Shown piece after piece: positions 5,185 through 53,465 of a stretch of DNA of 64,000 bases. Where the stretch lies: assembly GCF_000372725.1 (NCBI RefSeq), contig NW_005202428.1, positions 2,890,670-2,954,669 of the forward strand, read 5' to 3'. This DNA comes from Emiliania huxleyi CCMP1516 (taxonomy: Eukaryota). The stretch's first letter is position 1. Each line of letters starts with the position of its first letter. The position numbers were made by a program, and so were the translations under genes. The notes under the pieces were generated by a model. That model searched no databases. It was not told the DNA's origin and worked only from the letters and a program-made list of their open reading frames with translations.

Positions 5185-5530
5185 TGGCACTCAGGGGAGT
5201 TGACCCAGTTGGTACGCATCTTGCGTGCCTGCTTGTTGATGTTGTCGGCATGCCCGCCACCGGCCCACCGCCGCCATGGAGATCTGCTGGCTGCGGTGTG
5301 GGACGCTCGCGCCGACGCCCCCCACCCATACACCGTCCGGTCCGTGTTGGCCGCTTCCTTGGCGAACACGTGGAGGAACTGCTTGGTGGGCGGCGCAATA
5401 CCACGCAAAGTTTCCACGAGCACCAGCCGCGACAAACAGTGTTAGAGTTGTTTGGTATTGCTAAAAATCTCTCTCTCCAGCCGCGTTACGGCTTTCTTGA
5501 CCCACTTCGCGTCGTAGTACTGACCGTCCA
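5185..5530 (-). mobile_element. Degenerate 3' end of a CRE-like (RLE) non-LTR retrotransposon, interrupted by a 45-bp insertion
   Basis: GQYYDAKWVKKAVTRL|VLVETLRGIAPPTKQFL...DRTVYG...HADNINK aligns with the copies at 27.7, 31, 45.8 and 58.1 kb. Confidence 0.7.
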
Positions 5531-5897
5531 CTTCAGGCTGCATTCTTCTTGACCCACCCGTCTCCATACGCGTGGTCTTTGACCCATCCCTTTCCAGTCG
5601 AGTGGTCGAGCGGTCCGTCTCCAGACGGCCAGAAAACAAGGGCGAAAAAGAGTGAGTCTTTCGCTAAGCGCGGGTTAGCGCGGGTTAGTGCTCACTAACC
5701 CGGCACGGGTCAGCACGGGTCAGAATGGGTTACCATAACCCGGCACTAACCCGGCACTAACCCGGCACTAACCCGGCACTAACCCAGCGCTAACCCGTGC
5801 GGCTGGGGGGCATACGTCAGCATGGGTCTGCGCCGGGTTAGGGGTGGGTTAGTGCCGGGTTAGTGCAGCGCACCCCGGGTTAGAGCTGGTTGGCGAG

Positions 5898-7030
5898 ATG
5901 AAACGGCTGCGGCGGGCACCCGAGCCGACCTCCGCGATGGAGCCTTGGCTGCAGAAGGCCGTGGATGCCAAGCTGCTCATTGAGAAGAACATCCGCGTGC
6001 GCAGTTCGGACGGGTCCAAGGCGGTTGCTAAGGCCGTCGGCTACACGTGCGCCAAAGACTCGTGCGGCATGCTCTTTAAGCTCAATGTATCGAAGCAACA
6101 GTACGATCGTCACTTGAGGGAAGCGGCGGCACATCGCGCGAGCAACTTTGCCTTTGGCACGAGCGTGCCAGCTCGTGGCGCTGCGTCTTCATCCTCCAAC
6201 GGGCAGCGACCGGCTGAGTTTCGTCCCCGGCCTTCGCCGGCTCAAATCTTTGCGGCGGTGAACGCCAAGGCTGCCGCGGTAGTGGCTGCCCAGGCGGCAT
6301 CGGCTGCCGAGGAGAGCAGGCGGGCCGAGCTCGCTCGCGCGCCGGTGCACGCGGCTGCTGCGGCCGCCATCTCTGCCAAGGCGACCGACGCTGCCGAGGA
6401 GAGCAGGCGGGCCGAGCTCGCTCGCGCGCCGGTGCACGCGGCTGCTGCGGCCGCCATCTCTGCCAAGGCGACCGACGCTGCCTGCGCCGCCATGTCGTCC
6501 TGCACTGCAAGCACTTCGGCGGCAAGGGCGACCGCTATCGCCCGAGCATCGCCGTGACGCTCGAGGCGGGCGAGCGCGCCGTCGTCATTTCGTGCGGCCT
6601 CGTCTCCTTTGTCGCTGTCGAGCGGTGGGTCAAATTCACGGACAAGGAAGGCAAGGAGGCCCGCCGTCTCGTGTGGCAGCTGTTTGGCCCCGACGACCCG
6701 CACGGCAACAAGAAGGGGCACAACCAGCTGCACGCTCTGCAGCGGCTGCTCGTGCTGGGCGGCTACCTTCCGGTCATCACCGACCTCTACGTGCTCGCTG
6801 CGAACGACTCGTACACGGTACTGCCTCGCAACGCTCTCCGCGTGCCCAACAAGCAGAGCGAGCCGTTGGCGCGTCAGGTGCTCGACTACCGGAACGCGCG
6901 GATGCTGCGTGAGCTCGACGACAACGATGCTAAAAACGTGGCCGGCTTTGGGCGCCGGCGCGAGGGCACGGCCACGTACATCGACTTCAACGCGCACCTC
7001 GCGAGAGCGACAGACGAAGGCTTTGTGCCG
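5898..7030 (+). CDS. Element ORF A: N-terminal C2H2-like zinc finger, Ala-rich 90-bp duplication, unknown domain; apparently truncated
   Basis: CAKDSC...RHLREAAAH; AAEESRRAELARAPVHAAAAAAISAKATDA occurs twice; frame change or intron near 6555; protein-like reading ends near 7030. Confidence 0.55.
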
Positions 7031-7949
7031 GTGGGCGGTGAGCTTGGCGATCTCGACCTCCAGCTTCGAGAAGCCGGAGGTGTAGTGCTCGTTCATGAAG
7101 GTCTCGATCGCCTTGAGCACCTGGAGTGCACGCACCGCAGGGGAGGTGGGGTGAGGAGCGCCGAGGGATATGGTCGCAGTGCTGGGCGAGGCGCACCTCC
7201 CCATTCTTCTGCGACTGCGCGGGGTTGAGCGCCTTCTTGATCGAGCTCGCACTGTGGCCAATGAGGCCGGCGGCGGTGGCACCCTTGATCACGCCGCCCA
7301 CCTCAGTCGCTGCATCCTCGAGGAAGGTGTCGTACTTGATGGCAGTGGACCGTGCGCGGGCCTTGAGCAGCTCATCCGCGCGGAGGTAGAGAATCAGCTT
7401 GGTGTCGGGCGCGGCGTCAGGCTTCTGCTCGATCTGAATGCGCGTGTCGAGGCTAAGCATCTCGAAGCGCATGGCGACCTCGCGCACACTGGCCTGCAGC
7501 GCCTGCACCTTGATGACCTGCACGCAGAGGTCGCGCAGCTCCATCCCGAGCTGCTCGCCGAGAATGCTGCCGGCAAGCTCGCCCAGCGTGGTGACGCCGC
7601 CGTAGGGGTTGGCGGGAAGGGCGTGCCTGCGAGTGACGATGTACTCTGCCTTGCCGGTTGGACCGCGCTTGGCGCCGACGCCAGAGATGTTGAGAAACGC
7701 GTCATTGGATCCGACGCCATAAAACACCGCTTGCACCGAGGCGCCGGAGATGCGCAGCGGTCCCTGCGGTGGCGGCGGTGGCGGCTCCATGCGCGGCACG
7801 TTGTCCTCCTCGTCGAATAACGCCGCGGCGCGCTGCGCCCAATACTCATCGTGATCCATTGTCGTTGCTGCAACTCTGTTCGCGCCCTCCGAGTTTCGCG
7901 CTCGCCGATCGGCGAGAAACTCGCGGGCGGGCACTTCTGTTACAGGCAT
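7030..7949 (-). CDS. Element ORF B, unknown protein with one GT-AG intron; apparently truncated
   Basis: ATG at 7949; ...QSQKNGE|VLKAIETFMNEHY... across an intron at about 7197-7122. Confidence 0.6.
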
Positions 7950-8102
7950 GTTGTTTTTAGTTGTATATTGTTCGTAGGTATATTGTTGTTAGTCGAATGT
8001 CGCCCGCATTTATGTATGAACAAAGTAACAACAAACCTGCCGCGCATTCGAGACGGTGCAACCGCCGCTAGTCAACTTGCTTCCTTCGCCGTCGGCTGCG
8101 CG

Positions 8103-8495
8103 ATGGCGCCGCCCCATGATGACGACGACTGTCCGCCTACAGCCGAGACAGTCACCACGGCAGTGCGGAAGGAGCGCCGCCGCCAGCGCCAGCGGCGGGA
8201 GCAACGCGCCATTGATGCCGCCTTAGCGGCGGACCGAGCCGCCAGATCAGGGTGGGTGCGCCGGACGGCCCGCCCAGAGTCGTTGCGCGTGCTGGACGAT
8301 GGCACGGTGCAGTTCAAGATGCGCCAGTGGCACGGCACGTGGAGGTGGCTAGTCCACGAAGACTCGGGCTCAGAGACAGAAGGCATGACCACCGAGGTCG
8401 CGGACGAGCACTCGGTGTACATCGAAAGCCTGGGCGGCCGGTACGTCTGGGACGAGGATCGCTCGTGCTGGAAGTGGACCGTGTACGTCGACTAG
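8103..8495 (+). CDS. Element ORF C, small Trp-rich protein with a basic stretch
   Basis: MAPPHDDDD...RKERRRQRQRR...GGRYVWDEDRSCWKWTVYVD*; divergent from ORF B across an AT-rich spacer. Confidence 0.55.
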   Translation: MAPPHDDDDCPPTAETVTTAVRKERRRQRQRREQRAIDAALAADRAARSGWVRRTARPESLRVLDDGTVQFKMRQWHGTWRWLVHEDSGSETEGMTTEVADEHSVYIESLGGRYVWDEDRSCWKWTVYVD

Positions 8496-9065
8496 AGCAC
8501 CTCCCTCCTCACTGCTCCGTGCGCGCCTGACGCCCAGTCGACACACCTCCCGGTGCGCCCATGGCCTCCGTTGCAGTGGCAGTGCGGGCTGCAGGGGGCC
8601 CGGCGGCCGGCCCTCAACGTGTGCCAGTGATGGCCCTAGGGAGGAGTGCACTGAGGGCGGTACATTATAGATCCTGTGGCATGAGACTGTCCCGCTCGCC
8701 ATGCGCCCGCGGCTGTGGTGTGGCGAGTGTGCAGTGAACGCACGAGAGAGGGGCGGAACGAGCCGTAGACGGCTCTAACCCAAACCTAACCCGAGACTAA
8801 CCCGAGACTAACCCGGCGCTAACCCGGGCTGCTCGGGGGCATACGTTAGGATGGGTTAGTCTCGGGTTAGTGCCGGGTTAGTGCCGGGTTAGTGCCGGGT
8901 TAGCGTCGGGTTATGGTAACCCGTTCTAACCCGTGCTGACCCGTGCTGGGTTAGTGTGGCTTAACCCGGTGGAACCCACGGCTAACCCGCGCTTCCTGAC
9001 AGACTCACAAAAGAAAAATCTGGTCGCGCCAGGACTCCAGCCCACGGCCTCAAAACTGGCGAGGG

Positions 9066-12000
9066 ATGTCGCGGCGGGTGAGTTCAGCCGAGCTGGCGGC
9101 GCACGCCACCAACGAAAGCTGCTGGATCGTCATCCACGGCGACGTCTACGACGTCACCGACTTTCACCACCCAGGCGGCAACGACCGCCTCTTCGAGCGC
9201 GGAGGCCGAGACGCCTCCGCCGCCTTTGACGCGATCGGGCACTCCATGCACGCGACAAAGCACATGCAGGCCCTGCGTGTCGGCCAGCTTGCTCCGTCGC
9301 CGGACGCCGCCGCCGCCTCGACTTCGCACCTCCCGCCTGCGCCCGCGGCGCCACGCCTCACGCACGCGGACCTGCCCGCGGCGGCGAGCGCGTCATTGGA
9401 CCGAGCCGAGGGCGGTGGGATCGCAGCCTCCTCGGGCCGGCCTCCGCCCACCGTCCCGCCCGCCCGCCCCGCCTTGACCTCGCTCCGGGTGGGGGCGGCG
9501 GAGCTGGCCGGAGCAGCGAGCGGCGGCGGCATCCGCGCGGGAGGCGGCGGCGTCGGCAGCGGTGCAAACAGCGTCGACGGCGCCTTTCCAGGCGGCGGCG
9601 GGAGTTTGGAGCCCGACTCGCAGCGGTGGGTCCTCAAGTCGGCCGTCTTCCACCGCGCTCCTCGGCCGCAGGACCGGCTCTGGTCGACTCGGTGCCGCGG
9701 CTTCCTGCCGGCGAGGAACCCGCCCGAGGAGGTGCCGCAGCCGTACAAGCTGCTCACCGAGCTGGTCGAGGGGCTCCCCGCCGCGCTGGCCGAGGGCTCC
9801 TTCCGGCGCCTGGTCGACGCCCGCGCCGCCGACTTCGCGCCACTCGAGGCGGCCATCCGCGCGGAGCGGGACGAGGCGCTGCTCGAGCGCATCCACTCGC
9901 TCTACGGCTACATCGGCAAGGGGTGCGCGCTCGAGCCCCCCCACCCACCCACCCACCCACCCACCACCTCCCCACCCACCACACACACACACAGCCTTCT
10001 TCCTCTCCCGTCACCCCCTCTCTTCTTCGCAGGTACGTCCTCGAGCCCCCCGCGAGCAGCGGGCCCCGCCCCTCCGCCTCGGCCGCACCGCCCTCCCCGC
10101 CGCCGCTCGGCCGCGTGGCGACGGCGCACGCATCGCTCGGAGACGGCCCGCGGGGCGGGCACATACCCCGACCCTTCTCGGAAGCTTCCCCCCGTAGGCG
10201 CCGGCCTCGCTCGAGGCGCTCGCGCCCGCACGGCCCGCACGGCCCGCCACGGCCGGCGCCGCAGACACTGGAGCCGAGCCCGCGCCGCCGCAGCGCACCA
10301 CCGCAGCGGGCGCCACGCCCGCCGCCGCCGACGCTCCCGGAGCGACGTCCCCCGGCGGCGGGAGCAGCGGAGGAGCAGCCGTCGCGCCGTCGCCGCCGCC
10401 GACGGCGCCGACGCTTGCCGCGCCGGTGCCGCTCGAGCCCGAGGCCAAGGTCGTTCCAAAGTTCCTCTCGGACGGCTGGCTGGCGGTGTCTGCGCGCGTG
10501 GGTCGGCAGCCGACCATCGACTACGCCAACTGCGTGCTCTTCAACTTTGCGCTGCTGCACCCGGCGGGCGGCGTCACTCCGCACACCGCTGCGAACAGCG
10601 TCTCCTCACACCTTCTAGCTGCGGACAGGAGGGCGGCATCACGCCGGACAATGTGCGAATCCTCAACCGCTTCACTGGCGCGCGACACGGGGCTCTCTCG
10701 GCCCCACCGCACGGCCACGCCACGCTCCACTGCCCGCGTCCCTGTAGGCTTGCTCGACGAGGAGTGGTTCCTCAAGACCCACGTCATCATCGAGTCCGAG
10801 GCGGCGGGCGTCGTCTCGGCCGTCTACGACGCCGCCGCCGCAGTCCGGCGTTGCGACCTCGACCGCCTGCTCGCCCAGCTCACCTGGCTGGAGCAGGCGT
10901 ATAATATAATAGAATAGAATAGAATATAATATAATATAATATAATATAATCACCTGGCTGGAGCAGGCGCTCTCGCACGTCGCGTCAAACACGCTGCGCC
11001 TCATGTTCGAGCGGCGCGACGAGGACCGCCGCCCACGGCGGCGAGACACTGCCGTCGCGCAGCCCTCACCGCCCGCTGTTGCGCCGCAGGACGGCTTCAT
11101 GTGCGAGCCGGACGCCTTCTTCCACCGCGTGCGGCCGCTCATCTCTTCGTGGACGGCCCTCTTCGAGGGGCAGTACGACGACTCTTCCGCGCTGCACGAC
11201 CTCACCTCCCAACTCGAGGCGCTCGACCGGCCGGAGGCGCGACGCGTGCAGTAAGCCTCCACCAAGCGTCACGACACGGCTCTCTCTCAGGCGGTCGAGC
11301 GGCTCGAGGCGGCGGCGGCGGCGGCCGGGTCCGGCCTGCCCGACCTGGCCCGCCCGCGACCCCTCGCCGGCGTGTCGAGGCTACGCCTACGACACGTCCA
11401 CGGCGCGTCCCGTAGGCGCCGCACCGTGAGCACCTCCGCCGCCGCATCGCCTCGCTGCAGCGGCGCAAGAGGCTGTGCGGCCCGTCGGGCGCCATGTCGG
11501 CCATCCTAGACACTTCCTAGACACTTCCTAGACACTTCCTAGACACTTCCATGTAGGCGCCATGTCGGCCATCCTCCCGCTCTGCGACGGTTTCCTCGGC
11601 ATCTCGATGTCGTCCGAGGCGCTCGGCGCGATGCTCAAGGCCTTCGAGCAGTACATGCCCGCGCCGCACCGCGATTTCCTCGACGACGTGCGCCGCCGCC
11701 CCCTCCGCCCCCTCATCGTCCGGCTGCGGGAGGCGGCGCGCCGTGCGGGCAGCGGCGTCGGCAGCAGCGGCGGCGGCTCGCCGGCGTCGCTGTCTGCGAC
11801 CGCCGACACGGGCGGTCCGCACGTCTCGCCGTCTCCAGGCGGCGGGCGCGGCGGCGGCGGCGGCGAGGAGGCGATGGCGTCGGGCGGTGGTGCGGCGGGA
11901 GTGGGTGCCACGGCGGGCGCGGGCGCCGGCGCGGCGGAGGACGAGTCGTGGCCGGAGTGTGCCATGGCGACGTTCGAGGGCGACGAGGCCTTCCACGAGG

Positions 12001-14119
12001 CGGGCTCGGCCTCTGCCTCGCCGTCTCGCGGAGCATTCGGTCAACCTTCTCGCAGCTTTCCCACAGGCGGCCGTCGAGTCGCTGGTCGACCACTACAATG
12101 CGGTTGTGCGGCGCGTGCTCGACTTTCGGTGGCGCCACCTCTCGTACATCGAGGAGTACGTCATCAAGCCCTCGGGCGGGATGGCCACCGCGCGGGGCAC
12201 GGGCGGCACGCCCGCCTTCGCCTACCTCAACCAGCACATCAACGACACCGAGGCGGCCCTCATTCCGACCCTCACCTCGTCGCCGCTCCTCCGCCCCCCC
12301 GCCGCACACGCCCCGCCGGATTGGAAGCTGCCGGCTGCCGCCTTCGCCGAGGCTGCCCTCACGCTCCACGCCGGCCAGCGCCTCGGAGCGGAGCACGCGG
12401 CGGCCGGCGAGCTGTGGGCGGTGACAGACGAGCGGGGCCTGCTGCCCGCGCGACCCCCGCTCGACCTCGACGGCCTGCCTGCTGCGTGGCGGGCCGCCGT
12501 GCGCCTGCTGCGACGGCTGCCCGGCGCGTGCGTCCCTCCCCCAACCTTCCGCTCGCTCGTCGCCGCCGCTGCGGCGCGCGGCGACTTCCCCCCGCCCGCC
12601 GCGGTCGCCGCGCTGCCCAGCGAAGACTCCGCGGAGCGAGCGCGTTGCGTGACCGCTTACGTGCTCGCGGGCTGGCGCGCCGCCAAGCCGCCTCCCCAGC
12701 GCGAGCCTCCCGGCCTCGCTGCCTCCCCGGAGGCGCATCGTCGTTCGTACGCCGAGGGCGGCGCCGCGGCGAGGCGCGGCTGGTGGTGCCGCGCCGCTCT
12801 CGCGCGGAGCCAAGCCTGCCTCGCGACTGTTCTCCTCACTTCTGGCCCGTCTGCCCGGTAGGTGCCACCGCCACCCGCGCCACGACGACCAGCTCGACGA
12901 CCCTGCCGCACCCGACGACGCGTCGCCGCCCCCGACGGCGGACCGCGACACCGAGGAGACGCCGCCCGCGCCGCTGCTCCTTCTGCACGCGGCCCTCTGC
13001 GGGAGGGTGGACCGGCCGTCTCGTTTTGGGGTTGCGGAGCTGCTTCTCTACAATTGGCGGCTGCTACCGCCGCTCGGCGGGGACGAGCCCGCCGAGGGCG
13101 AGGGCGAGGGCGAGGGCGGGGCCGAGGGCGAAGGAGACCGGCCTTCGCTACGCAGGATGCGGCGCGTCGTGCCGTGCCAGCGGTTCGTGTGCTTTGAAGA
13201 GGAGGACTGGTTTGTGCGGCTGCACGTCACGCTCGCCGGCGAGGCGGTGCGAGGCTTCCTAGACACCTCCTAGACACTCTCCTAGACACTTCCCATCCTC
13301 CGGGGTCCCACGGGCGCCTCCGCGCCTCACAGGGTCGCTTGGTCGAGGCGGCGCGGCACTGTGTGGGCGCCTGCGACACGAACGAGCAAGTGCGCGCGCT
13401 GCAGTCGCTCGAGGGGGCGCTTGAGACCCTCGTCAGGGTGAGGGGGCGCGGGGCCTTCCTCCCCTCCCCCGAGCTCTCCCACTGATTATGGCTGAGCTCC
13501 CCAGGTGCACTATGTCGCCGGCATTGGCCAGGCGCCTGGCGCCGACGCGCCAAAGGTCACGCCGGCGCTGCTGATGGGGCGGATGCACCGCTTCTTGCCG
13601 CCGTCGCCGCCGGAGCTCGGCCTCGCCTCGGAAGCGGAGGCGCGCGCGGTGCGGGTCTACTGTGCGAGCGGCATCGACCAGCCGATGGTGCTGCACTTGC
13701 TCGGCGTGCATCGCGGCGGCCACGCCATCGGCCGCTTTCGCGAGTGGCAGGCCTCTGCCGATCTGCCCACGCCACACCGCGCGTTCCTCGCCGACGTGCG
13801 GTGCTGCACGCCCATGCGCGAGCGCGTCGAGGCGGCTGTCGGCGGTGAGCGGCTCGCGGTGCAGGAGCTGGCGCGGCTCGAGCTCGCGCACAACTCGTGC
13901 ATCGACATGGCGCTCCGCCTCTTCACTCGCCGGTATGAGCTCGTGCGCGCGCTTCTCGGCGTCGACGCGCTCGCCACCAGCTGGCAGCACGAGCGTGGCC
14001 TCATCCAGGAGGCGCGGCTGAGGCTGCTCGTGGAGCGACGCGAGATGGAGGGGCCGCGACGCGGCCTCCCCACACGCGCCCATGCCTACAAGCGCGAGCC
14101 CACCGAGCGAGGCCGGTGA
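9066..14119 (+). CDS. IDO: Cytochrome b5 - indoleamine 2,3-dioxygenase - degenerate second IDO domain fusion, multi-exon
   Basis: b5: CWIVIHGDVYDVTDFHHPGG...GHS. IDO-1: RGFLP, QPTIDYANCVLFNF, FTGLLDEEWF..H..IE, FFHRVRP, GPSGAMS, YMPAPHRDFL, FRWRHLSYIEEYVIKP, GTGGT. IDO-2: RGLLP, LLYNW, EEDWFVRLH, LPTPHRAFL. Confidence 0.85.
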
Positions 14120-23769: not shown

Positions 23770-26273
23770 ATGCTTGGCCTACTACTGCCGTTCGCATCGG
23801 GCTATAGCGCGGCGACGCCGCGGCTGGCCGCCACAGCTCGCGTCACGCCGCTGCGGTTGTCGAATGCCGAGCCAGCTGTCAGCGGCCTCCAGGCCCTGCA
23901 GAGGAAAGCGCTGCCGTTTGCGCGCCCGCCGCTCGCGCCTCGAAGGAGGCGACCGCCGCCCGTGTGCAGCGCGAGCAAGGTTGGCTCTGTGCCGCTGGCG
24001 CTCGATCCGCATCGCTGGGTGCAGCTCGGCATCCTCTCGATGCTGGCTCTGCTGAGCGACTGGACGTGCTTCGCCACGGTGGCAGTGCCGTCCGAGTGGA
24101 TGACGCTCGAGGGGCACGACGCTGCGGAGCTGATCGACATCTTCCTCGCCTCCAACGTGGTGTCCTGCTTCCTCTTCACCGACATCGCCGCGCGCCTCGG
24201 CCTCAAAAAGGTTGTGACGGGGGCGGCGACGATGATGGCGGGCGGCTGCCTGCTCCGCTCGGGCATCCCATTCGTGGAGCCCGCGATAGAGGTCATGCCC
24301 GGGTACGGCTGGGAGGTTGCGGGCACCATCCTGGTTGGCATGGCGCAGCCCTTTTTTCAGTGCACTCCGCCGCTCCTGTCCGCCACCTGGTTCGGCTCCT
24401 CCGAGCGGGCGCTCGCCACCGCCACGGCGATCAACTTCAACCAGGTCGGGATCGCCACCGCCTTCATCGTCGGAGGCCTCATGGCAAACTCGCCCGAGGG
24501 CATGCACGCCTACTTCGACGTACTCGCCTGCGTCTCGATCGCCGCCGCCGCCGCCACAGCCCTCCTCTTCCGGGACAGGCCAGAGACGCCGCCGTCCGCC
24601 TCGGCCGCCGCCGCCGCCGCCGAGCTCGCCGTCGCGCCGCCGCCCGCTCCGCGCCTCGAGTACCCGCGCAAGGCACTCGCCCTCCTCCGCTCTCCCGGCT
24701 TCGGCGTCGCGACCGCCTCTTTCGTCGCGTCGATCGGCTGCACGAACGTCGTCTCGGCCTTCACCGCGCCCGCCCTCGCGCGGGCTGGGCTGATGGACGG
24801 CACGCGCCAACCCTAACCCTAACCCTAACCCTAACCCTAACCCTAGCCCTAGCCCTCGCGCGGGCTGGGCTGATGGACGGCAGGCGCGAGCCCCGCCAAG
24901 GGAAGGGGAAGGCTGGGCAAGGGGAGGCTGGGCAAGGGGAGGGCTGGGCAAGGGGAGGGCTGGGCAAGGGGAGGGCTGGGCAAGGGGAGGGCTGGGCAAG
25001 GGGAGGGCTTGGCCGCGCCTCTTCTCACCGGCTGCGAGTGCCTCGCGCTGCAGGGATGCAGATCGACCTCGCCGGCGCGGGCTTCCAGCTCGCCATCGTG
25101 CTGGGCGGGATCGGGCTCGGCGGACTGGTCGACCGCAACAAGAACTTCAAGCTCGTCATCCTCTCCTGCCTCCTGTCGTCGGTACTTCCTAGACACTTCC
25201 AAGACACTTCCTAGACACTTCAAGCTCGTCATCCTCTCCTGCCTCCTGTCGTCGGTACTTCCTAGACACTTCCAAGACACTTCCTAGACACTTCAAGCTC
25301 GTCATTCTCTCCTGCCTCCTGTCGTCGGTACTTCCTAGACACTTCCTAGACACTTCCTAGACACTTCAAGCTCGTCATTCTCTCCTGCCTCCTGTCGTCG
25401 GTACTTCCTAGACACTTCCAAGACACTTCCTAGACACTTCAAGCTCGTCATCCTCTCCTGCCTCCTGTCGTCGGAACTTCCTAGACACTTCCTAGACACT
25501 TCCTAAAAAACTTACAGGCTCGTCATCCCTCTTCCTGCCTCCCGGTCGGAACCCCCCGGGCCCTTTGCGCCCCAACCCCCGGCCAATTCTTCTCCCATCT
25601 TCCCTCTTCCCTTCTCNNNNNNNNNNNNNNNNNNNNNNNNNNNNNNNNNNNNNNNNNNNNNNNNNNNNNNNNNNNNNNNNNNNNNNNNNNNNNNNNNNNN
25701 NNNNNNNNNNNNNNNNCCCTCGCCTACCGCCTACCGCCTACCGCCTCGCGCCACCCCCGTGCCACCTCCAGGTGTCCTACCCGTGCGACGAGAATGCCGT
25801 CGAGGCGACGCAGCAGCTCGCCGGTACTTCCTAGACACTTCCTAGACACTTCCTAGAATGCCGTCGAGGCGACGCAGCAGCTCGCCGGCACCCGCCCGCC
25901 CCGCCGCCCCAACCCCCTGCCCACGCCCCACACCCAAGCAGCGACCGCCCGGCAGCGCCCCTGGCTGCCCTGAGCCAGCCGCCCGCGCCCAGGCAACCTC
26001 TTCTCGGCGCTGCTCGTCCCTATCTGCCAGAGCGCTGCTGCATACGACCTGCAGATGCCGGGTCGTGCGATGGACATACGCGGCGATACGCTCGTGCTGC
26101 TGGCGCTGGTGCCGGCCCCGCGACGCGACCGCCCCTCTCTCGCGAGCCGGGAAAGCCTCAACCCCGCCTGTCGCACCGCGCAGGTGGCCGCCACCGCCGT
26201 CGCCTTCTCCTCATTCGACGCGCCCCTCGAGCGGACCCGCGTCGACGACGAAGGCGCCGCCGCGGAGCTGTGA
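23770..26273 (+). CDS. MFS transporter of the FLVCR/SLC49 type with a putative bipartite plastid-targeting N-terminus; spans an assembly gap
   Basis: HRWVQLGILSMLALLSDW, PPLLSATWFGSSERALAT, VSYPCDENAVEA; N-terminus MLGLLLPFASGYSAATPRL... Confidence 0.8.
24809..24851 (+). repeat. Interstitial telomeric (CCCTAA)n tract inside an intron
   Basis: Five CCCTAA units then CCCTAG variants, between 31-bp direct repeats. Confidence 0.9.
24899..25010 (+). repeat. Intronic 16-bp minisatellite (GGGCAAGGGGAGGGCT)n
   Basis: About 6-7 visible copies. Confidence 0.85.
25144..25550 (+). repeat. 73-bp tandem unit made of the exon 3' end plus about three CTAGACACTTC repeats
   Basis: Units start at 25144, 25217, 25290, 25363 and 25436, with a degenerate sixth before the gap. 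Confidence 0.9.
25617..25716. other. Assembly gap (100 N)
   Basis: N run. Confidence 1.
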
Positions 26274-34125: not shown

Positions 34126-36785
34126 ATGGAGCCGCAGTCTCCCGGCGGTGCTGGCCCCTCGCGCGGGGCGACCACGCACACGCCGGACGGCGCGTACAAG
34201 TTCGAGCTCGGGCCGCTCGGCGCGCTCGGCTCGGGCGCGCACGGCGTCGTGCGGCTTGCGCGGCATGTGGAGTCGGGGGAGATGGTTGCGATCAAGGTGA
34301 TGCCGACGGCGGTGATGGGGGCAGTGGCCAAGGAGCTGGTCGCGATGGCCAAGGTGGACCACCCCAACATCGTGCGGCTGTTGGGCACGCAGGTCGACCT
34401 CGACCGGAAGCGGGTCTACATGGTGATGGAGCTCTGCCAAGGCGGCGAGCTCTTTGACCGGATCGCCGAGTGCGGCAAGCTGGAGGAGGACCAGGCGAGG
34501 CAGTACTTGGTGCAGATGGCGCTCGCGATCGAGCACTGCCACGGGCTCAACGTCTACCACCGCGACCTCAAGCCTGAAAACATTCTCCTCTCGCAGCAAG
34601 ACCGCGTCAAGATTGCAGACTTTGGCGCCGAGAGAAGCGCCGGGCGGGGAGAGGGGATGCGCGCGGCGGGGTGAGTCGGCCCTCGCTCTCTGCGTAGGCC
34701 TCGCCGCGATGGTCGGCCAGGTGCGCGAGGACGCCTCCTTCCTGCGGCACACAAAGTGCGGCTCGCTCATGTATGCCGCGCCAGAGGTGCTCGTCTCGGA
34801 CGCATCGCGAGGGTACGACGCGGCCAAGGTGCTGCAGCTCACCAGACCGGGTGGGCGGGCGTCACCCGCACCCGCGCCCGCACCCGCCGCCTCACCCCGG
34901 CTCTAGGCCGACATCTGGTCGCTCGGCGTCATCCTCTACTCGATGCTGTCTGGCGCGCTGCCCTTCCAGGCGCGGCGGGCACCGACGCGCCCAAAGTGGG
35001 GAGGGAGGGAGGAGGGGAGAGGGGAGAGGGGGTTGCAGAGCGCGCGGCAGCTGCCGAGCGCCGCCGCCCCCTCCGCCACCGCCGCGCAGGTCGCCAACGC
35101 GCGGAAGTGCACGCGCTATGCCGTCGTCGAGGAGCGCGGCGCGGCGGTCCTCGCTTCAGGGAGATGCGCGCTCACCGTCGCTTGTGTCTCATTACAGGAG
35201 CGAGGCATGGCGGTCCTCTGCGACGCGTCCGGCTTCTCGGCCGACGCGAGCAGCATCCTCGTCGCGATGCTCGAGCCCAACCCCGCCCGGTACGCTCCCT
35301 AGCACACCCCCTCCCCCGACGCCTCCTGCCCTCCCCTGACCCTTCCCCACGAGCTCTTCTCCCCACGAGCTCTTCTCCCCACGAGCTCTTCTCCCCACGA
35401 GCTCTTCTCCCCACGAGCTCTTCTCCCCACGAGCTCTTCTCCCCACGAGCTCTTCTCCCCGCGAGCCGCCTCTCCCACGCCCTCCCCAGAGCCGCTCCTC
35501 CTCACCGAGCCCTCGCCCCGCAGCCGCCTCTCCGCCAAGGGCGTGCTCGCCGCCGCGTGGGTCGCCGCTGCTCGCCCAGAGAAGCCGACCCGCGCGGTCC
35601 CGCCCGCCGAACCGCCGCAAACCCGAAAGTGGTCTGTCGAGCTCGGCGACAAGACCATGGACAAGGCAGACAAAGTGGGCAAGGCGACCGGCGCCGAGGC
35701 CGGCGCGGACCTGGCCGGGGAGGAGGGCGGCACGCCCAAGCGGCGGCGCAGCGGCAGCGAGGCGGAGGCGGCGGCCAAGCGGCAGGCGGCCGGCGACGAG
35801 GCGGCGGCGGAGAGTGCGCGGGAAGGGGCCCTTGCCACGCGCTGATCGACGCCCCCCCCCCCCCCCCCCGTCCCACCCCGTCAGGCGACGAGCCCGCGGC
35901 CTGCCCCCGCGCTGCTCGGCGCCAACGATGCGCCAGAAGAGGTCCCGCCGGGCGTCAACGGCGTGCTCGTCCGCCCGCTGCTGGGCTGCTTCTAGGAGCC
36001 TTCTAGGAGCCTTCTAGGAACGTTCTAGGCATGCTCGTCCGGTCGCTGGGCTGGGTGCAGCTCCCCGAGGAGAAGGAGAAGATGGTCGGCGATGTGGCGA
36101 GCGCGCTGGACTCGATGGGCGTCAAGTACGAGGTTGCACTTCCTAGACTCTTCCTAGACACTTTCTAGACACTTCCTGGACTCGATGGGCGTCAAGTACC
36201 CTGTTGGCCACGCTGCGAGGGGCTCGCCCCCAGCAGCCTCGCGCGAGCCGCACCGGACCCTTCCGCCAGGTGGTCAAGGGCGAGCTGACTGACGTCGTGT
36301 GGGTGGGGGGGGAGGAGCCGACGCCCGAGGTGGCCGCCGCCAGCCACATCAGCCGCAGCAGCAGCAACGAGCCGCCCGCCGCCGAGGCTGCAGACGCCGC
36401 GCACGCGGGCAGCAGCAACGGCGGCGCGGCGGGCAACGGCAGCGGCGGCGATGTGCCGGCTGGCCGGGGCAGGGGCGAGAGCGGGCCGGCCGACGGTGAG
36501 GGCGGTGGGAAGGGCGGAGGCGGCGCCCCTGCAGGCGCCGCGCTCGAGCTCGAGCCGGCCTCCCCGTCAAAGTACTCGGAGGGCAGGCTGTGCGTGCGGA
36601 TCCGCGTCAACCCGTCCGCCGAGGACAAGTCGGAGGTGCACATAGACCGGCAGGCGGGGGACGTGCTTCAGTTCCACTCCTTTTACCGCGACGTGCGCAA
36701 CCAGCTCGCCGGAGCGAACGGGTGGGTGGAGAACCACGGCCGGTACGAGCACGAGGTCTTCCCGAGTCAGGCGGACTTCAAGTGA
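34126..36785 (+). CDS. Ser/Thr protein kinase, CAMK group (SNF1/CIPK/Chk1-like), with possible KA1-like C-terminal domain; multi-exon
   Basis: LGSGAHGVV, VAIK, HRDLKPEN, DFG|L, TKCGSLMYAAPE, ADIWSLGVILY; introns 34625-34697, 34829-34906, 34970-35089 and others. Confidence 0.9.
35345..35462 (+). repeat. Intronic 16-bp minisatellite (CCCCACGAGCTCTTCT)n
   Basis: About 7 exact copies. Confidence 0.9.
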
Positions 36786-37254
36786 GGCGGCGGAGAGGAT
36801 GGGGGGCGGGCGCCGCCCCCTCTGCCGTGCCCGGGGGGGGGGGGGGGGGGGGGCCAACCTGGGTGCCCCTCCCCCCGTACCCCCCGAAACCTCGGAAAGT
36901 TCGGGGGGCTCCCCCCCCTCTCCGGGTTGGAATGTACCCCGGTTCCCCTGGAAAGCACTGAGTCCAAACCTGCCCTCCCTTTTTTTTTGATTCCCCCCCA
37001 AAAGCCCCCCAGTCAAATCAAACACCCCCCCCTTTGATTTTTTTTTTCGAAAAAAATTTTTTTTTGCCCTTTGAATTCAATTTTTGCAAAATTTTTCCTG
37101 CCAAGGGGCCGGTTGCCCCGCTCCCTTTTTTACCTAAAAATTTTTTCCCATCCCTGATTGGGCTCGTCTCGCCCTCCGGGGGGCCCATGGGGGGGAAATC
37201 CCCCTCCTTTCCCACCAAGAAAAATGGCTTGGCCCCTAAAACGGGGCTGTCGCC

Positions 37255-46677: not shown

Positions 46678-48225
46678 ATGCCGCGCAGCTCGCCCGATCC
46701 GTCCACGCCGCGCTCCACGTACTCGCTGCGGCCCCGGACGCGTCCTCGCGTGGAGGCCCCGCTTCGGCTGACCGACCTCTTCGACGACGTCCTCGAGCAG
46801 TGCCTCCCGCTGCAGATTGCGGACGCTGCGCGCGCGGCGGCCTCGTGCCGTGCGCTGCTCCGGGCGTGGCAGCGCCCCTCCTTCGCCCGGCGCCTCGAGC
46901 TCCCCGACACGCCGATGCGCGCGGACGGCGCGCTCGCCTGCCTGAGGAGGCTCGCGGATGCCGGCAACCCGAGCGCGCGCTTCCGCCTCGGAGTCGCGCG
47001 AGTGTACGAGTCTTCGGCCGCGGAGGCGGGGGAGGGTTACGAGGAGGGGCTCCGCCTCCTCAAATCGCTCGCCGAGCCGCCTCCCGAAGAGAACCTCGGT
47101 GCCCTCCGAGGCGACGCCCTCTTTGAGATCTGGCGCCTCCGCACCCCCCGCACCCTCTCTCTGCCCCGCGCGTACCTCAGGGGCAGGGGGGGGGTCGAGC
47201 TGCGGCCTCCCCTCTCCCCCCTGCCCCCCTGCCCCCCTGCCCCCCTGCCCCCCTGCCCCCCTGCCCCCCTCGCCCCTCGCCCCTCGCCCCTCGTCCCTCC
47301 CCCTCACCCCTCGCCCCTCCCCCTCCCCCTCCCGCCTCCCCCTCCCCCTCCCCCTCCCGCCTCCCCCTCGCGGCTGGCTACGCGCTCACGCCCTGCGGCG
47401 CCGGCGAGCAGGCACTTGACCAAGGACGGCGACGAGAGGGAGCGGTTGCTGCGGCGTGCCGCCTCCGAGGGCCACGTCGCATCGCAGATCGAGCTGCACG
47501 GCACGTCGAAGAGCCACCTGCAGACGCTTGGCCTCCGCCGGCCGCTCGACGCGTCCGGGGCAGCCAGCCTAGTAGCAGTCAGCCTAGTAGCAGCGACCGT
47601 CGCAGCGAGCCGTCGCAGCGAGCAGCACACTCTCGCCTCGCCCCGCCCCCGCGCCTCTCGCCTGTGCCTCTTCCCGGCCTGTGCCTCTCCCCGGCCTGGC
47701 TCACCGCGACTAGCCCTGACCCTAACCCGAGCCCCCCCCTCGCCGCAGGTCTTCTCCCCGGCCTGGCTCACCGCGAGCGAGAACATCCTCGCTAGCCCGT
47801 CTGCGGAGCGCGACCGCGAGGAGGCGAGCGGCACGGCGCCGCCCGCGACGCGTGCACGGCACGTCCACGACACGTCCACGACGCGTCCCTCAGGCGACCG
47901 CCTCGCGCCACTATTGCGACCGGCCGGGCTGCGTGCGCTGGCGCTTCCGCAAGAGGGAGGTTCGGAAGCGGGAGGCGGTCGGCCTGACAGGCTCGCCATA
48001 CATCCGGCTCTGGAAGTGCGGCCGCTGCCGCTGCGCCTGCTACTGCTCGAAGGCCTGCCAGACGCTGGCGTGGCCTCGCCCGCACCGCGAGGCAGCCGGA
48101 GGGAGGGCGAAGGGCGGCGTGGCGCGCTCGGGGCCTCAGCTTGCCCGGCGGTGTCTCTGTAGGAGTGCGACCGCATCCTGGGCTTGCACGCGAACGCCCT
48201 TCTCGCTGCCGGCATGGATGCTTGA
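46678..48225 (+). CDS. F-box-like + Sel1-like + MYND zinc-finger protein, multi-exon
   Basis: LTDLFDDVLEQC...AASCR; ADAGNPSARFRLG; AASEGHVASQ; CDRPGC...KCGRCRCACYCSKACQTLAW...EC. Confidence 0.8.
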
Positions 48226-52585: not shown

Positions 52586-53465
52586 CATTTGCCGCCAACC
52601 ACAAGTCATGTCGTTGCTCAGGTCCACTCTCGTGTCGGACACTTGTACCTCCACAGATAATGATGTTGGCGCTGGGGTCCCCTTCGGGTGCATCGTGACA
52701 GCGACGGCGGGATTACCACTGGTGTTCCGTCCAGGGCGAAAGAAAGAAAGAAAACAGACAAGACAAGGGAGGGATGGGAGGACGGCACGCCGCCACCACA
52801 CAGGGATTTTAAGGAGAGGAGTGTGGTGCTAGCCGTCGCCCACCCTAACCCTTGGTCGTCTGCCTCTTTCCATCTCTCTTCGCAGTCCCTCGCCGATTCT
52901 CGCTGCAACCTTCATGCCACCTCGCGGTCGTCCCACTCTCGTCGTTCTCCCTCCTGTCGCTTCCTCCTCTGTCGCGTCGCTCTCGTCTGCCTCATCCTGC
53001 GACGCCGCCGCCGCCTGCCGATCCCTTGCTCTCGCGGCTTCTCCCGCCTTTCGGCGCAACCTCGCGGCATATTTTGGCGCGTGAACAGGGCTCCAGGCCC
53101 CAAATGACGTGTGAGTGTTAGAGTTGTTTGGTATTGCTAAAAATCTCTCTCTCTCTATTTTGGCCCCTCGAGTTTATCGAGCTCTCCTCGCGCAAGGACG
53201 ACTCTTCTGACGCCCACTCCGATCATTTGCCGCCAAGTCATATCGTTGCTCAGGTCCACTCTCTCTTCGAAAACTTGTACCTCCACCGATGATGTTGCTT
53301 GTTGGCGCTGGGGTCCCCTTCGGGTGCATCGTTACAGCTGACGACGGGATTACCGTCCAGGGCGAAAGAAAGAAAGAAAGAAAACACACAACAAAGGGAG
53401 GGATGGGAGGACGGCACGCCGCCACCACACAGGGATTACCGTCCAGGGCGAGCTAAAAAAAGAAA
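52584..53465 (-). mobile_element. Head-to-tail array of RVGDG*-family units with a nested CRE-A tail
   Basis: Junction CGTCCAGGGCG|AAAGAAAG at 52738 and 53364; CRE-A tail at 53079-53155. Confidence 0.8.

What the first reader, a model, noticed from the sequence alone, without database searches (positions are those of the whole stretch)
10880..10969. Cleanest young intron: 20-bp duplication around (TATAA/TAGAA)x10
TCACCTGGCTGGAGCAGGCG occurs twice around 50 bp of pure pentamer repeat. Splicing from GC (10897) to CAG (10966) removes 70 nt and restores one copy, reading LTWLEQ|ALSH in the IDO domain. Both splice sites come from the duplicated CAG|GC. Unspliced, the frame stops at 10915-10917.
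Basis: seen in the sequence. Interest (0 to 1): 0.75.

Follow-up and report, generated by a model that had tools for sequence, protein, structure and literature searches.

The report
Intron birth hotspot with repeat fillers
A 70-base insertion in an enzyme gene of a likely marine alga, made of a 20-base copy of the gene's own sequence plus a simple repeat, is likely spliced out as a newly born intron, and near-identical database sequences appear to carry the same spot either empty or filled with other repeats, so introns likely arise at this spot again and again.

Summary
One GC-AG excision (10897-10966) restores the reading found in homologues of this cytochrome b5-IDO gene. The gene is transcribed and under purifying selection, and an independent metagenome contig carries the same insert. 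The insert is therefore very likely a real, young intron, although no junction read could be examined.

The site matters more than the single intron. Read-through gene calls identical to the window over flanking introns show four states at this junction: this filler, an uninterrupted reading (empty allele, or partly spliced RNA), and a different repeat in each orientation. Related lineages carry six further unrelated contents at the same codon boundary, and others carry none.

The build recurs: six more exact 20-34-bp duplications spaced 64-86 bp apart lie in the window. Decayed duplications mark older introns of the gene.

Best reading: staggered-break or target-primed repair adds simple-repeat filler and duplicates a CAG|GC proto-splice site. 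The enzyme is unidentified. This is a new variant of Daphnia-type break-repair intron gain, with longer duplications and a small library of repeat fillers, some telomeric. It is not uniquely the cleanest intron; 11489-11556 is as fresh.

The parts
10880..10899 (+). First copy of the 20-bp duplication: last 17 nt of the exon plus GCG, which forms the GC donor
10900..10949 (+). Filler of ten pentamers (7 TATAA, 3 TAGAA; 6% GC); carries the stop 10915-10917 and repeated TAAT, a possible branch site (consensus recalled)
   Evidence: one pentamer differs in L001
10950..10969 (+). Second copy: 17 intronic nt ending in the CAG acceptor (10966), plus GCG of the next exon; GAG at 10961-10963 is a tandem acceptor that would add one Gln in frame
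10897..10966 (+). Predicted 70-nt phase-0 GC-AG intron (intron 5 of 13)
   Evidence: splicing inferred
9066..14119 (+). Host gene: cytochrome b5 domain plus an IDO domain and a second, weaker IDO-like region; 13 predicted introns, 1364 aa
   Evidence: introns 10-13 match MMETSP transcript protein P0077, 648 of 649 residues
11488..11575 (+). Second fresh event in the gene: perfect 20-bp duplication around an 11-bp-unit repeat; predicted GC-AG intron 11489-11556
10564..10628 (+). Older intron with a decayed 23-bp junction duplication; its filler is the repeat that appears at the focal site in P0003 (reverse) and P0020 (forward)
9923..10032 (+). Older intron with a decayed 20-bp junction duplication
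11219..11290 (+). Older intron with a decayed 23-bp junction duplication
10124..10197 (+). Predicted intron with a weak 17-bp junction duplication; boundary not supported by homologues
24772..24882 (+). Same build in an FLVCR-like MFS gene: 31-bp duplication around telomeric CCCTAA repeats, ending 3 nt past the donor of intron 24800-25053
25791..25888 (+). Same build in the MFS gene: 34-bp duplication around the 11-bp repeat, ending 1 nt past the donor of intron 25824-25992
25144..25542 (+). 73-bp unit (exon end plus 11-bp repeat) amplified 5.4 times; likely the same event expanded by unequal exchange; next to an assembly gap
36106..36199 (+). 24-bp duplication around the 11-bp repeat, spacing 70; splice pattern not resolved
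47686..47776 (+). 24-bp duplication around a telomere-like filler, spacing 67; splice pattern not resolved
53346..53451 (.). 66-bp truncated copy of a dispersed (AAAG)n-anchored repeat with a 20-bp target duplication

Best explanation
The 70 bases are likely a newly born spliceosomal GC-AG intron, likely made when a staggered break around the CAG|GC of the Gln-Ala codons was repaired with 50 bases of simple repeat added between the two ends, duplicating 20 bases and so giving one copy a donor and the other an acceptor. Shown: the anatomy, the frame logic, the same insert in an independent contig, purifying selection on the gene, and the same build at other sites with decayed versions in older introns. 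Shown at protein level only: other near-identical sequences read this junction uninterrupted or with a different repeat in either orientation. Inferred: splicing of this junction; 3'-overhang break geometry; and synthesis of the filler by a repeat-adding reverse transcriptase (telomerase for the CCCTAA fillers, a non-LTR-type enzyme slipping on a tandem tail for the others). Also inferred: the site is hit repeatedly because it is the only CAG|G in the conserved 741-nt stretch, so insertions there survive as introns, and the flanking repeat lets them be lost again precisely.
For: Exact anatomy and single valid excision. Homologues read one copy (22 of the 56 stored proteins with the W.EQ motif read on uninterrupted). 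Gene alive: 8 differences in 4095 exon bases versus 10 in 959 intron bases against L001 (Fisher p=6e-4), 6 synonymous to 2 non-synonymous (p=0.007), both indels in predicted introns. Four other junctions, one GC-AG, match transcript protein P0077. All 13 introns have G|G flanks, and 10 of 13 are 65-74 nt. P0019 equals the window translation with only this intron removed (177 of 177 aa). P0003 and P0020 match the window over 82 of 82 and 156 of 157 upstream residues (the one difference is the initiator), intron read-through included. Their tails match intron 10564-10628's filler on opposite strands (CEETLF, NSVSSHL; chance about 2e-5 and 4e-7). P0003 then ends in the re-copied exon end, giving about 61 nt. 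Junction similarity in the 13 introns exceeds cross-paired controls (0 of 100,000 permutations, also without the two perfect ones). Annotation-free scan: 12 of 1616 donor-acceptor pairs at 60-90 nt versus 7 of 11,040 at 91-300 nt (p=4e-7). L002 has its own ~30-bp duplication and different filler at the same junction, and introns with TTAGGG turning to CCCTAA. A dispersed repeat with 12-20-bp target duplications lies in the window.
Against: No RNA read across this junction was seen. P0019 could be partly spliced RNA rather than an empty allele: intron retention is common in E. huxleyi (PMC4028052, passages). P0003, P0019 and P0020 are single protein records without DNA and could come from sister species or chimeric assemblies. 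The 3' end of the intron is GC-rich exon copy with no pyrimidine tract. The donor lacks the +5 G found in 8 of the 13 donors. P0077 starts downstream and is labelled complete, so it says nothing for the 5' half. The source of the pentamer filler was not found: no second array in the window, none in viral contigs, and no reverse-transcriptase domain among 36 window ORFs scanned. The right edge of the duplication lies only 3-4 nt past the donor in all young states, which random breaks do not predict and which favours the renewal rival.
Confidence: 0.72

Rival explanations
1. Intron renewal. An older intron stood at this codon boundary. A break at its 5' splice site re-copied the exon end behind a new filler, and the old intron body was then deleted through the CAGGCG microhomology. 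The sequence is young but the position is ancestral and continually rebuilt.
For: The position is occupied in three separate parts of the protein tree and in L003. The duplication ends +3/+4 past the donor in the window, P0003, P0020 and L002. In the MFS gene two fresh duplications end +3 and +1 past a donor whose older intron body still follows, with junctions checked against homologues: the predicted intermediate.
Against: It needs a second, exact deletion. The junction is uninterrupted in P0019, in the closest relative P0043 and in full-length ORFs on 9-17-kb DNA contigs (P0008, P0022, P0028, P0040). The window gene and L002 share only this 1 position among L002's 4 complete introns. The site is the only CAG|G in the stretch, so parallel gain is expected.
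Confidence: 0.2
2. One gain, several fillers. A single duplication event occurred, and later repair or conversion swapped the interior, so the three filled states in the species complex are not independent gains.
For: The edges are compatible in the window and P0003 (left edge 10876-10881, right edge +3/+4). The filler is mutable (pentamer change in L001; first unit of the 11-bp filler differs in L001).
Against: The contents are unrelated, and one repeat occurs in both orientations. It does not explain L002, P0012, P0013, P0015 or P0046.
Confidence: 0.2
3. The insert is not spliced and is a null allele of a dispensable gene.
For: Unspliced it frameshifts and stops. Intron retention is frequent in E. 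huxleyi. No junction read was seen.
Against: Two insert-bearing haplotypes show purifying selection and no other lesion in 4095 coding bases. Length and G|G flanks match the gene's other introns.
Confidence: 0.04
4. Assembly artefact in the window.
For: The window is a draft with gaps (N runs at 25617 and 49428).
Against: The same insert, with one internal difference, is in an independent metagenome contig and in P0004.
Confidence: 0.01

Closest known systems
Neointrons of Daphnia pulex made by repair of staggered double-strand breaks (PMC4202315; abstract and passages)
   Same: [quoted passage not shown]
   Different: Junction repeats are 4-12 bp there and 20-34 bp here. Fillers here come from a small set of tandem repeats (5, 6, 11 bp and a longer unit) reused at different sites and in both orientations. 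Donors are mostly GC, and the same site is occupied across distant lineages.
Interstitial telomeric sequences inserted by telomerase during break repair in mammals (PMC2246262; passages)
   Same: Tandem repeat added at a break, sometimes with target duplication. The events at 24772 and in L002 are telomeric.
   Different: Not described there as making introns in the passages seen; duplication in only 5-16% of loci; the focal filler is not telomeric.
Introners (PMC9860276; passages)
   Same: New introns whose splice sites can come from the insertion site; target duplications in some families.
   Different: No terminal inverted repeats, no family of end-to-end similar introns in the window, and a duplication of 20 bp against 3-9. 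That screen removed low-complexity families, so it would not report this class.
Intron gain by tandem genomic duplication of a proto-splice site (PMC3296678, PMC3488318; passages)
   Same: The duplicated (A/C)AG|G supplies both splice sites.
   Different: 50 of the 70 bases are foreign filler, which brings the insert to the local intron length.
5'-truncated non-LTR retroelement insertions (target-primed reverse transcription; properties recalled)
   Same: Target duplication of about 20 bp, tandem-repeat tail, junction microhomology; the (AAAG)n-anchored repeat in the window looks like this.
   Different: No element body at the focal site, and no parent element with this tail was found.

Membership tests
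Spliceosomal GC-AG intron | GC donor and YAG acceptor in the local G|G context | tested here: met
   CAG|GCGTAT..CAG|GC; 13 of 13 introns of the gene have G|G flanks
Spliceosomal GC-AG intron | Excision restores the conserved reading frame | tested here: met
   Collinear with P0001 and P0002, equal to P0019
Spliceosomal GC-AG intron | Branch site near the acceptor | tested here: inconclusive
   TAAT repeated 20-40 nt upstream, TCAC at 17 nt; consensus recalled, not calibrated for this species
Spliceosomal GC-AG intron | Spliced junction in RNA of an insert-bearing strain | not testable with these tools
   No reads available; transcript proteins P0077, P0078 and P0087 cover only downstream junctions
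Staggered-break neointron (Daphnia type) | Direct repeat of flanking exon sequence at the intron ends | tested here: met
   20 bp exact, longer than the 4-12 bp reported
Staggered-break neointron (Daphnia type) | Empty allele or empty outgroup | tested here: inconclusive
   P0019 (DNA or RNA unknown), P0043 (outgroup or retrocopy), intronless ORFs on long contigs in more distant lineages
Staggered-break neointron (Daphnia type) | Unrelated inserts at the same site (parallel gain) | tested here: met
   7 distinct read-through tails among 34 interrupted proteins, plus L002 and L003; independence of the events not shown
Introner | Many introns similar from end to end | tested here: not met
   One pentamer array in the window; the rest of the genome could not be searched
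Introner | Terminal inverted repeats or a 3-9-bp target duplication | tested here: not met
   Filler is a pure direct array, so no inverted ends; duplication is 20 bp
Intron by tandem genomic duplication | Intron consists only of duplicated gene sequence | tested here: not met
   50 bp of filler absent from the flanks
Tail-only non-LTR insertion | Filler matches the 3' tail of an element in the genome | not testable with these tools
   No genome held; no match in viral contigs
Tail-only non-LTR insertion | Target duplication and junction microhomology | tested here: inconclusive
   Duplication present; only 1 nt of microhomology at the focal site, 3-6 nt at 11488, 24772, 25791 and 53346 (read)
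Telomerase-made interstitial telomeric sequence | Filler is the telomere repeat | tested here: not met
   Focal filler is TATAA/TAGAA; met for 24772 and for L002 introns; TTAGGG is the G. huxleyi telomere repeat (bioRxiv 2024.05.26.595999, passage)

The most novel reading that the evidence does not exclude
Haptophyte introns are made and remade by a repeat-adding break-repair route that acts at splice junctions. Telomerase and other reverse transcriptases extend the 3' overhangs of 20-35-nt staggered breaks, so single codon boundaries cycle between empty and several differently filled introns within a living species. This route, invisible to introner screens, would be a main source of introns and of interstitial telomeric repeats in this phylum.
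Probability: 0.3. Interest if true: 0.88.

Novelty: new variant of a known kind. Interest (0 to 1): 0.72.

Why it matters
The source of new introns is a long-standing open question, and most gains have no traceable origin. Here birth scars of graded age sit in one gene, and one junction appears in four states among near-identical sequences of what is likely a cultivable, much-sequenced alga. That makes gain, parallel gain and precise loss directly measurable with existing strain genomes and reads. It could also explain the repeat-filled GC-AG introns of E. huxleyi and the pervasive interstitial telomeric tracts reported in Calcidiscus (PMC13518057, passages). It warns that shared intron positions in haptophytes need not be ancestral.

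Tried and rejected
No genome and no sequencing reads were available, so genome-wide counts and junction reads are missing.

Scans that found nothing:
- The pentamer array in viral contigs; the 11-bp repeat in viral contigs and in prokaryote genomes.
- ESM Atlas, which gave no usable hit.
- 8 of 10 window ORFs, absent from the exact look-up, so presence/absence at the second fresh intron was not tested.
- Pfam on 36 window ORFs, which showed no reverse transcriptase or transposase.

Analyses set aside:
- The first annotation-free scan was swamped by the 73-bp array and its p-value was discarded. It was repeated with 22 arrays of 90 bp or more masked and events collapsed.
- L002 intron coordinates and MFS acceptor coordinates were off by one; they were corrected.
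- The L003 row in the tree was translated in the wrong frame and is ignored. The backbone of that tree is unresolved (2 of 14 branches strongly supported), so it cannot polarise gain against loss.

Readings rejected:
- The GT at 10899 as donor: no stop-free in-frame product in the enumeration, and a C at -1.
- A minus-strand GT-AG reading of the insert: the homologous protein is on the plus strand.
- A local template for the filler: no other array in the window.
- Events 25144, 36106 and 47686 were left out of the splice-site-edge argument because their junctions are unresolved.

Literature: Read et al. 2013 is not held. No supplements were read; they, and subscription papers, may describe these repeats.

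Full report
Observation. The 20-mer occurs at 10880 and 10950 only, around ten pentamers (7 TATAA, 3 TAGAA). Of 21 equivalent 70-nt excisions, one has GC..AG ends on the plus strand, 10897-10966. Unspliced, the frame stops at 10915-10917. Twenty simulated windows held no exact repeat of 20 bp or more at 35-400 bp spacing.

Organism. No call named it. I infer a haptophyte of the Emiliania/Gephyrocapsa group. GC is 54-77% per kb. The gene's donors are 8 GC, 4 GT and 1 GA, against 56/40/4% reported for E. huxleyi (PMC4028052, passages). Near-identical MMETSP transcript proteins exist.

Host gene. It runs 9066-14119, with a cytochrome b5 domain and IDO homology. A 13-intron model gives one open frame of 1364 aa. 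Nine introns are placed by full-length homologues P0001 and P0002. Introns 10-13 match transcript protein P0077 at 648 of 649 residues. Intron 10124-10197 lies in a low-complexity insertion and is my choice. Metagenome contig L001 is 99.1% identical over 5.9 kb and carries the same insert with one pentamer changed. Against it, exons differ at 8 of 4095 bases (6 synonymous) and introns at 10 of 959, both indels being intronic (p=6e-4 and p=0.007). Two insert-bearing haplotypes therefore keep an otherwise intact, selected frame, which requires that the insert be spliced. In the enumeration of stop-free in-frame donor-acceptor pairs, only 10897/10966 gives the homologous sequence; the GAG three bases upstream would add one Gln. 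No junction read was seen.

States of the site. Prokaryote-style gene calls on contigs read through introns and so show what follows WLEQ. Of 73 proteins stored, 56 have the motif; 22 read on uninterrupted and 34 break off in 7 distinct tails. Four states belong to sequences essentially identical to the window, intron read-through included. (1) The pentamer insert: P0004 and P0021. (2) P0019, equal over 177 of 177 residues to the window with only this intron removed and introns 4, 6 and the start of 7 retained. That is either an empty genomic allele or a partly spliced RNA. Either fits the model, but only the first shows polymorphism. (3) P0003, whose tail contains CEETLF, the reverse-strand reading of the filler of intron 10564-10628, and ends in the re-copied exon end, giving an insert of about 61 nt. 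(4) P0020, on 6 contigs, whose tail contains NSVSSHL, the forward reading of the same filler. These are protein records; their DNA could not be fetched, and sister species cannot be excluded.

Other lineages. L002 has an intron at the same phase-0 junction with its own partly decayed duplication of about 30 bp and a different repeat. Three of its 4 complete introns show junction duplications, and two contain TTAGGG repeats turning into CCCTAA repeats, as expected if both ends of a break were extended and fused. L003/L004 (one sequence assembled twice) has a GT donor there. P0012, P0013, P0015 and P0046 have four more tails, one reading like telomere repeats. Full-length uninterrupted ORFs lie on 9-17-kb contigs (P0008, P0022, P0028, P0040). 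The closest relative, P0043, lacks introns 3-5, though it may be a retrocopy. Filled states fall in three separate parts of a poorly resolved tree. The junction is the only CAG|G in the 741-nt conserved stretch of the window gene, so it is the best proto-splice site available.

A general build. Of 11 exact repeats of 20 bp or more listed, seven have this form: duplications of 20-34 bp at spacings of 64-86 bp, at 10880, 11488, 24772, 25791, 36106, 47686 and 53346. Two more belong to a 73-bp array of exon end plus filler. Fillers are the pentamer, an 11-bp unit, telomere-type repeats and a truncated dispersed repeat. In the gene, junction similarity scores are 20, 20, 11, 11, 11, 8 and lower, against at most 8 in 156 cross-pairs (0 of 100,000 permutations, also without the two perfect ones): an age series. 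An annotation-free scan found such similarity in 12 of 1616 donor-acceptor pairs 60-90 nt apart and in 7 of 11,040 at 91-300 nt (arrays of 90 bp or more masked). Zero mismatches in 17 intronic bases bound the focal copy's divergence only below about 16%, and intron 11489-11556 is as perfect, so 'youngest' is not shown.

Mechanism. Inferred: nicks about 20 nt apart leave 3' overhangs; one or both are extended with a tandem repeat and joined by microhomology; fill-in duplicates the target. If the target holds CAG|GC, both splice sites result, as here. If it begins with G|GY, the filler's own YA plus G supplies the acceptor, as at 11489. Inserts near 65-75 nt then pass as introns, and the flanking repeat allows exact loss. 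For CCCTAA fillers telomerase is the natural candidate (compare PMC2246262, passages). For the others a non-LTR-type enzyme slipping on a tandem tail is plausible, since a dispersed (AAAG)n-anchored repeat has 7 copies in the window, three with 12-20-bp flanking duplications. No parent element for the pentamer was found, and polymerase-theta-type synthesis is not excluded.

One feature is unexplained. The duplication ends only 3-4 nt past the donor in the window, P0003, P0020 and L002. It ends 3 and 1 nt past donors in the MFS gene, where an older intron body follows. This was noticed after the fact and rests on few cases. It raises the rival that breaks occur at existing 5' splice sites and rebuild old introns, or that one duplication had its filler swapped.

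Comparison and novelty. The closest case is Daphnia break-repair intron gain with parallel gains (PMC4202315, abstract and passages), where junction repeats are 4-12 bp. Introner criteria are not met, and that screen removed low-complexity families (PMC9860276, passages). Ten library searches (listings and abstract starts) and passages of six haptophyte papers showed no description of duplication-flanked, repeat-filled introns in haptophytes. Read et al. 2013 was not held and no supplements were seen. An unchecked note of this scan (e1-7377162) describes the same build in another GC-rich protist; it is a lead, not support.

Verdict. Observation confirmed; first reading supported and extended from one young intron to a recurrently filled site and a genome-wide build. 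New variant of a known kind, interest 0.72.

Noticed in passing
window 5651-9011: A 3.4-kb element with terminal inverted repeats (GTGAG..CTCAC), 11-bp subterminal repeats and an apparent 6-bp target duplication sits just upstream of the IDO gene and is absent from L001; no Pfam match in seven of its ORFs.
   Followed up: partly
window 5423-5476: A 54-bp insertion with a 9-bp duplication, absent from L001, interrupts a minus-strand reading frame; not an obvious intron.
   Followed up: partly
window 11024-11089: Predicted GA-AG intron, 66 nt and stop-free in the window; a 1-bp deletion in L001 (11082) would frameshift the gene unless it is spliced.
   Followed up: partly
window 27370, 33497, 48788, 52738, 53366, 62889, 63104: Dispersed repeat anchored on (AAAG)n and truncated at variable points at the other end, three copies with 12-20-bp flanking duplications; looks like a SINE or LINE end.
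   Followed up: partly
L003:111-1480: A short exon piece (about AAGVVTAVY) is repeated six times between (TA)n-rich introns, and the next exon three times, in a relative 88% identical to the window exon.
   Followed up: no
window 35132-35197 and 35961-36028: Two more candidate introns (66 and 68 nt, one with a GA donor) with decayed 21-23-bp junction duplications in an unidentified gene.
   Followed up: no
window 9066-14119: The cytochrome b5 + IDO fusion with a second, degenerate IDO-like region is conserved in several unnamed homologues of 963-1214 aa; the b5 domain would be a built-in reductant for the heme enzyme (inference).
   Followed up: no
window 11508-11518 versus L001: The first unit of the 11-bp filler differs at three bases in L001 and there resembles the flanking duplicated sequence, hinting at local templating at the filler edge.
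   Followed up: no
window 36830-37200 and 25500-25620: Homopolymer-rich, low-quality-looking sequence, probably read ends of a draft assembly.
   Followed up: no
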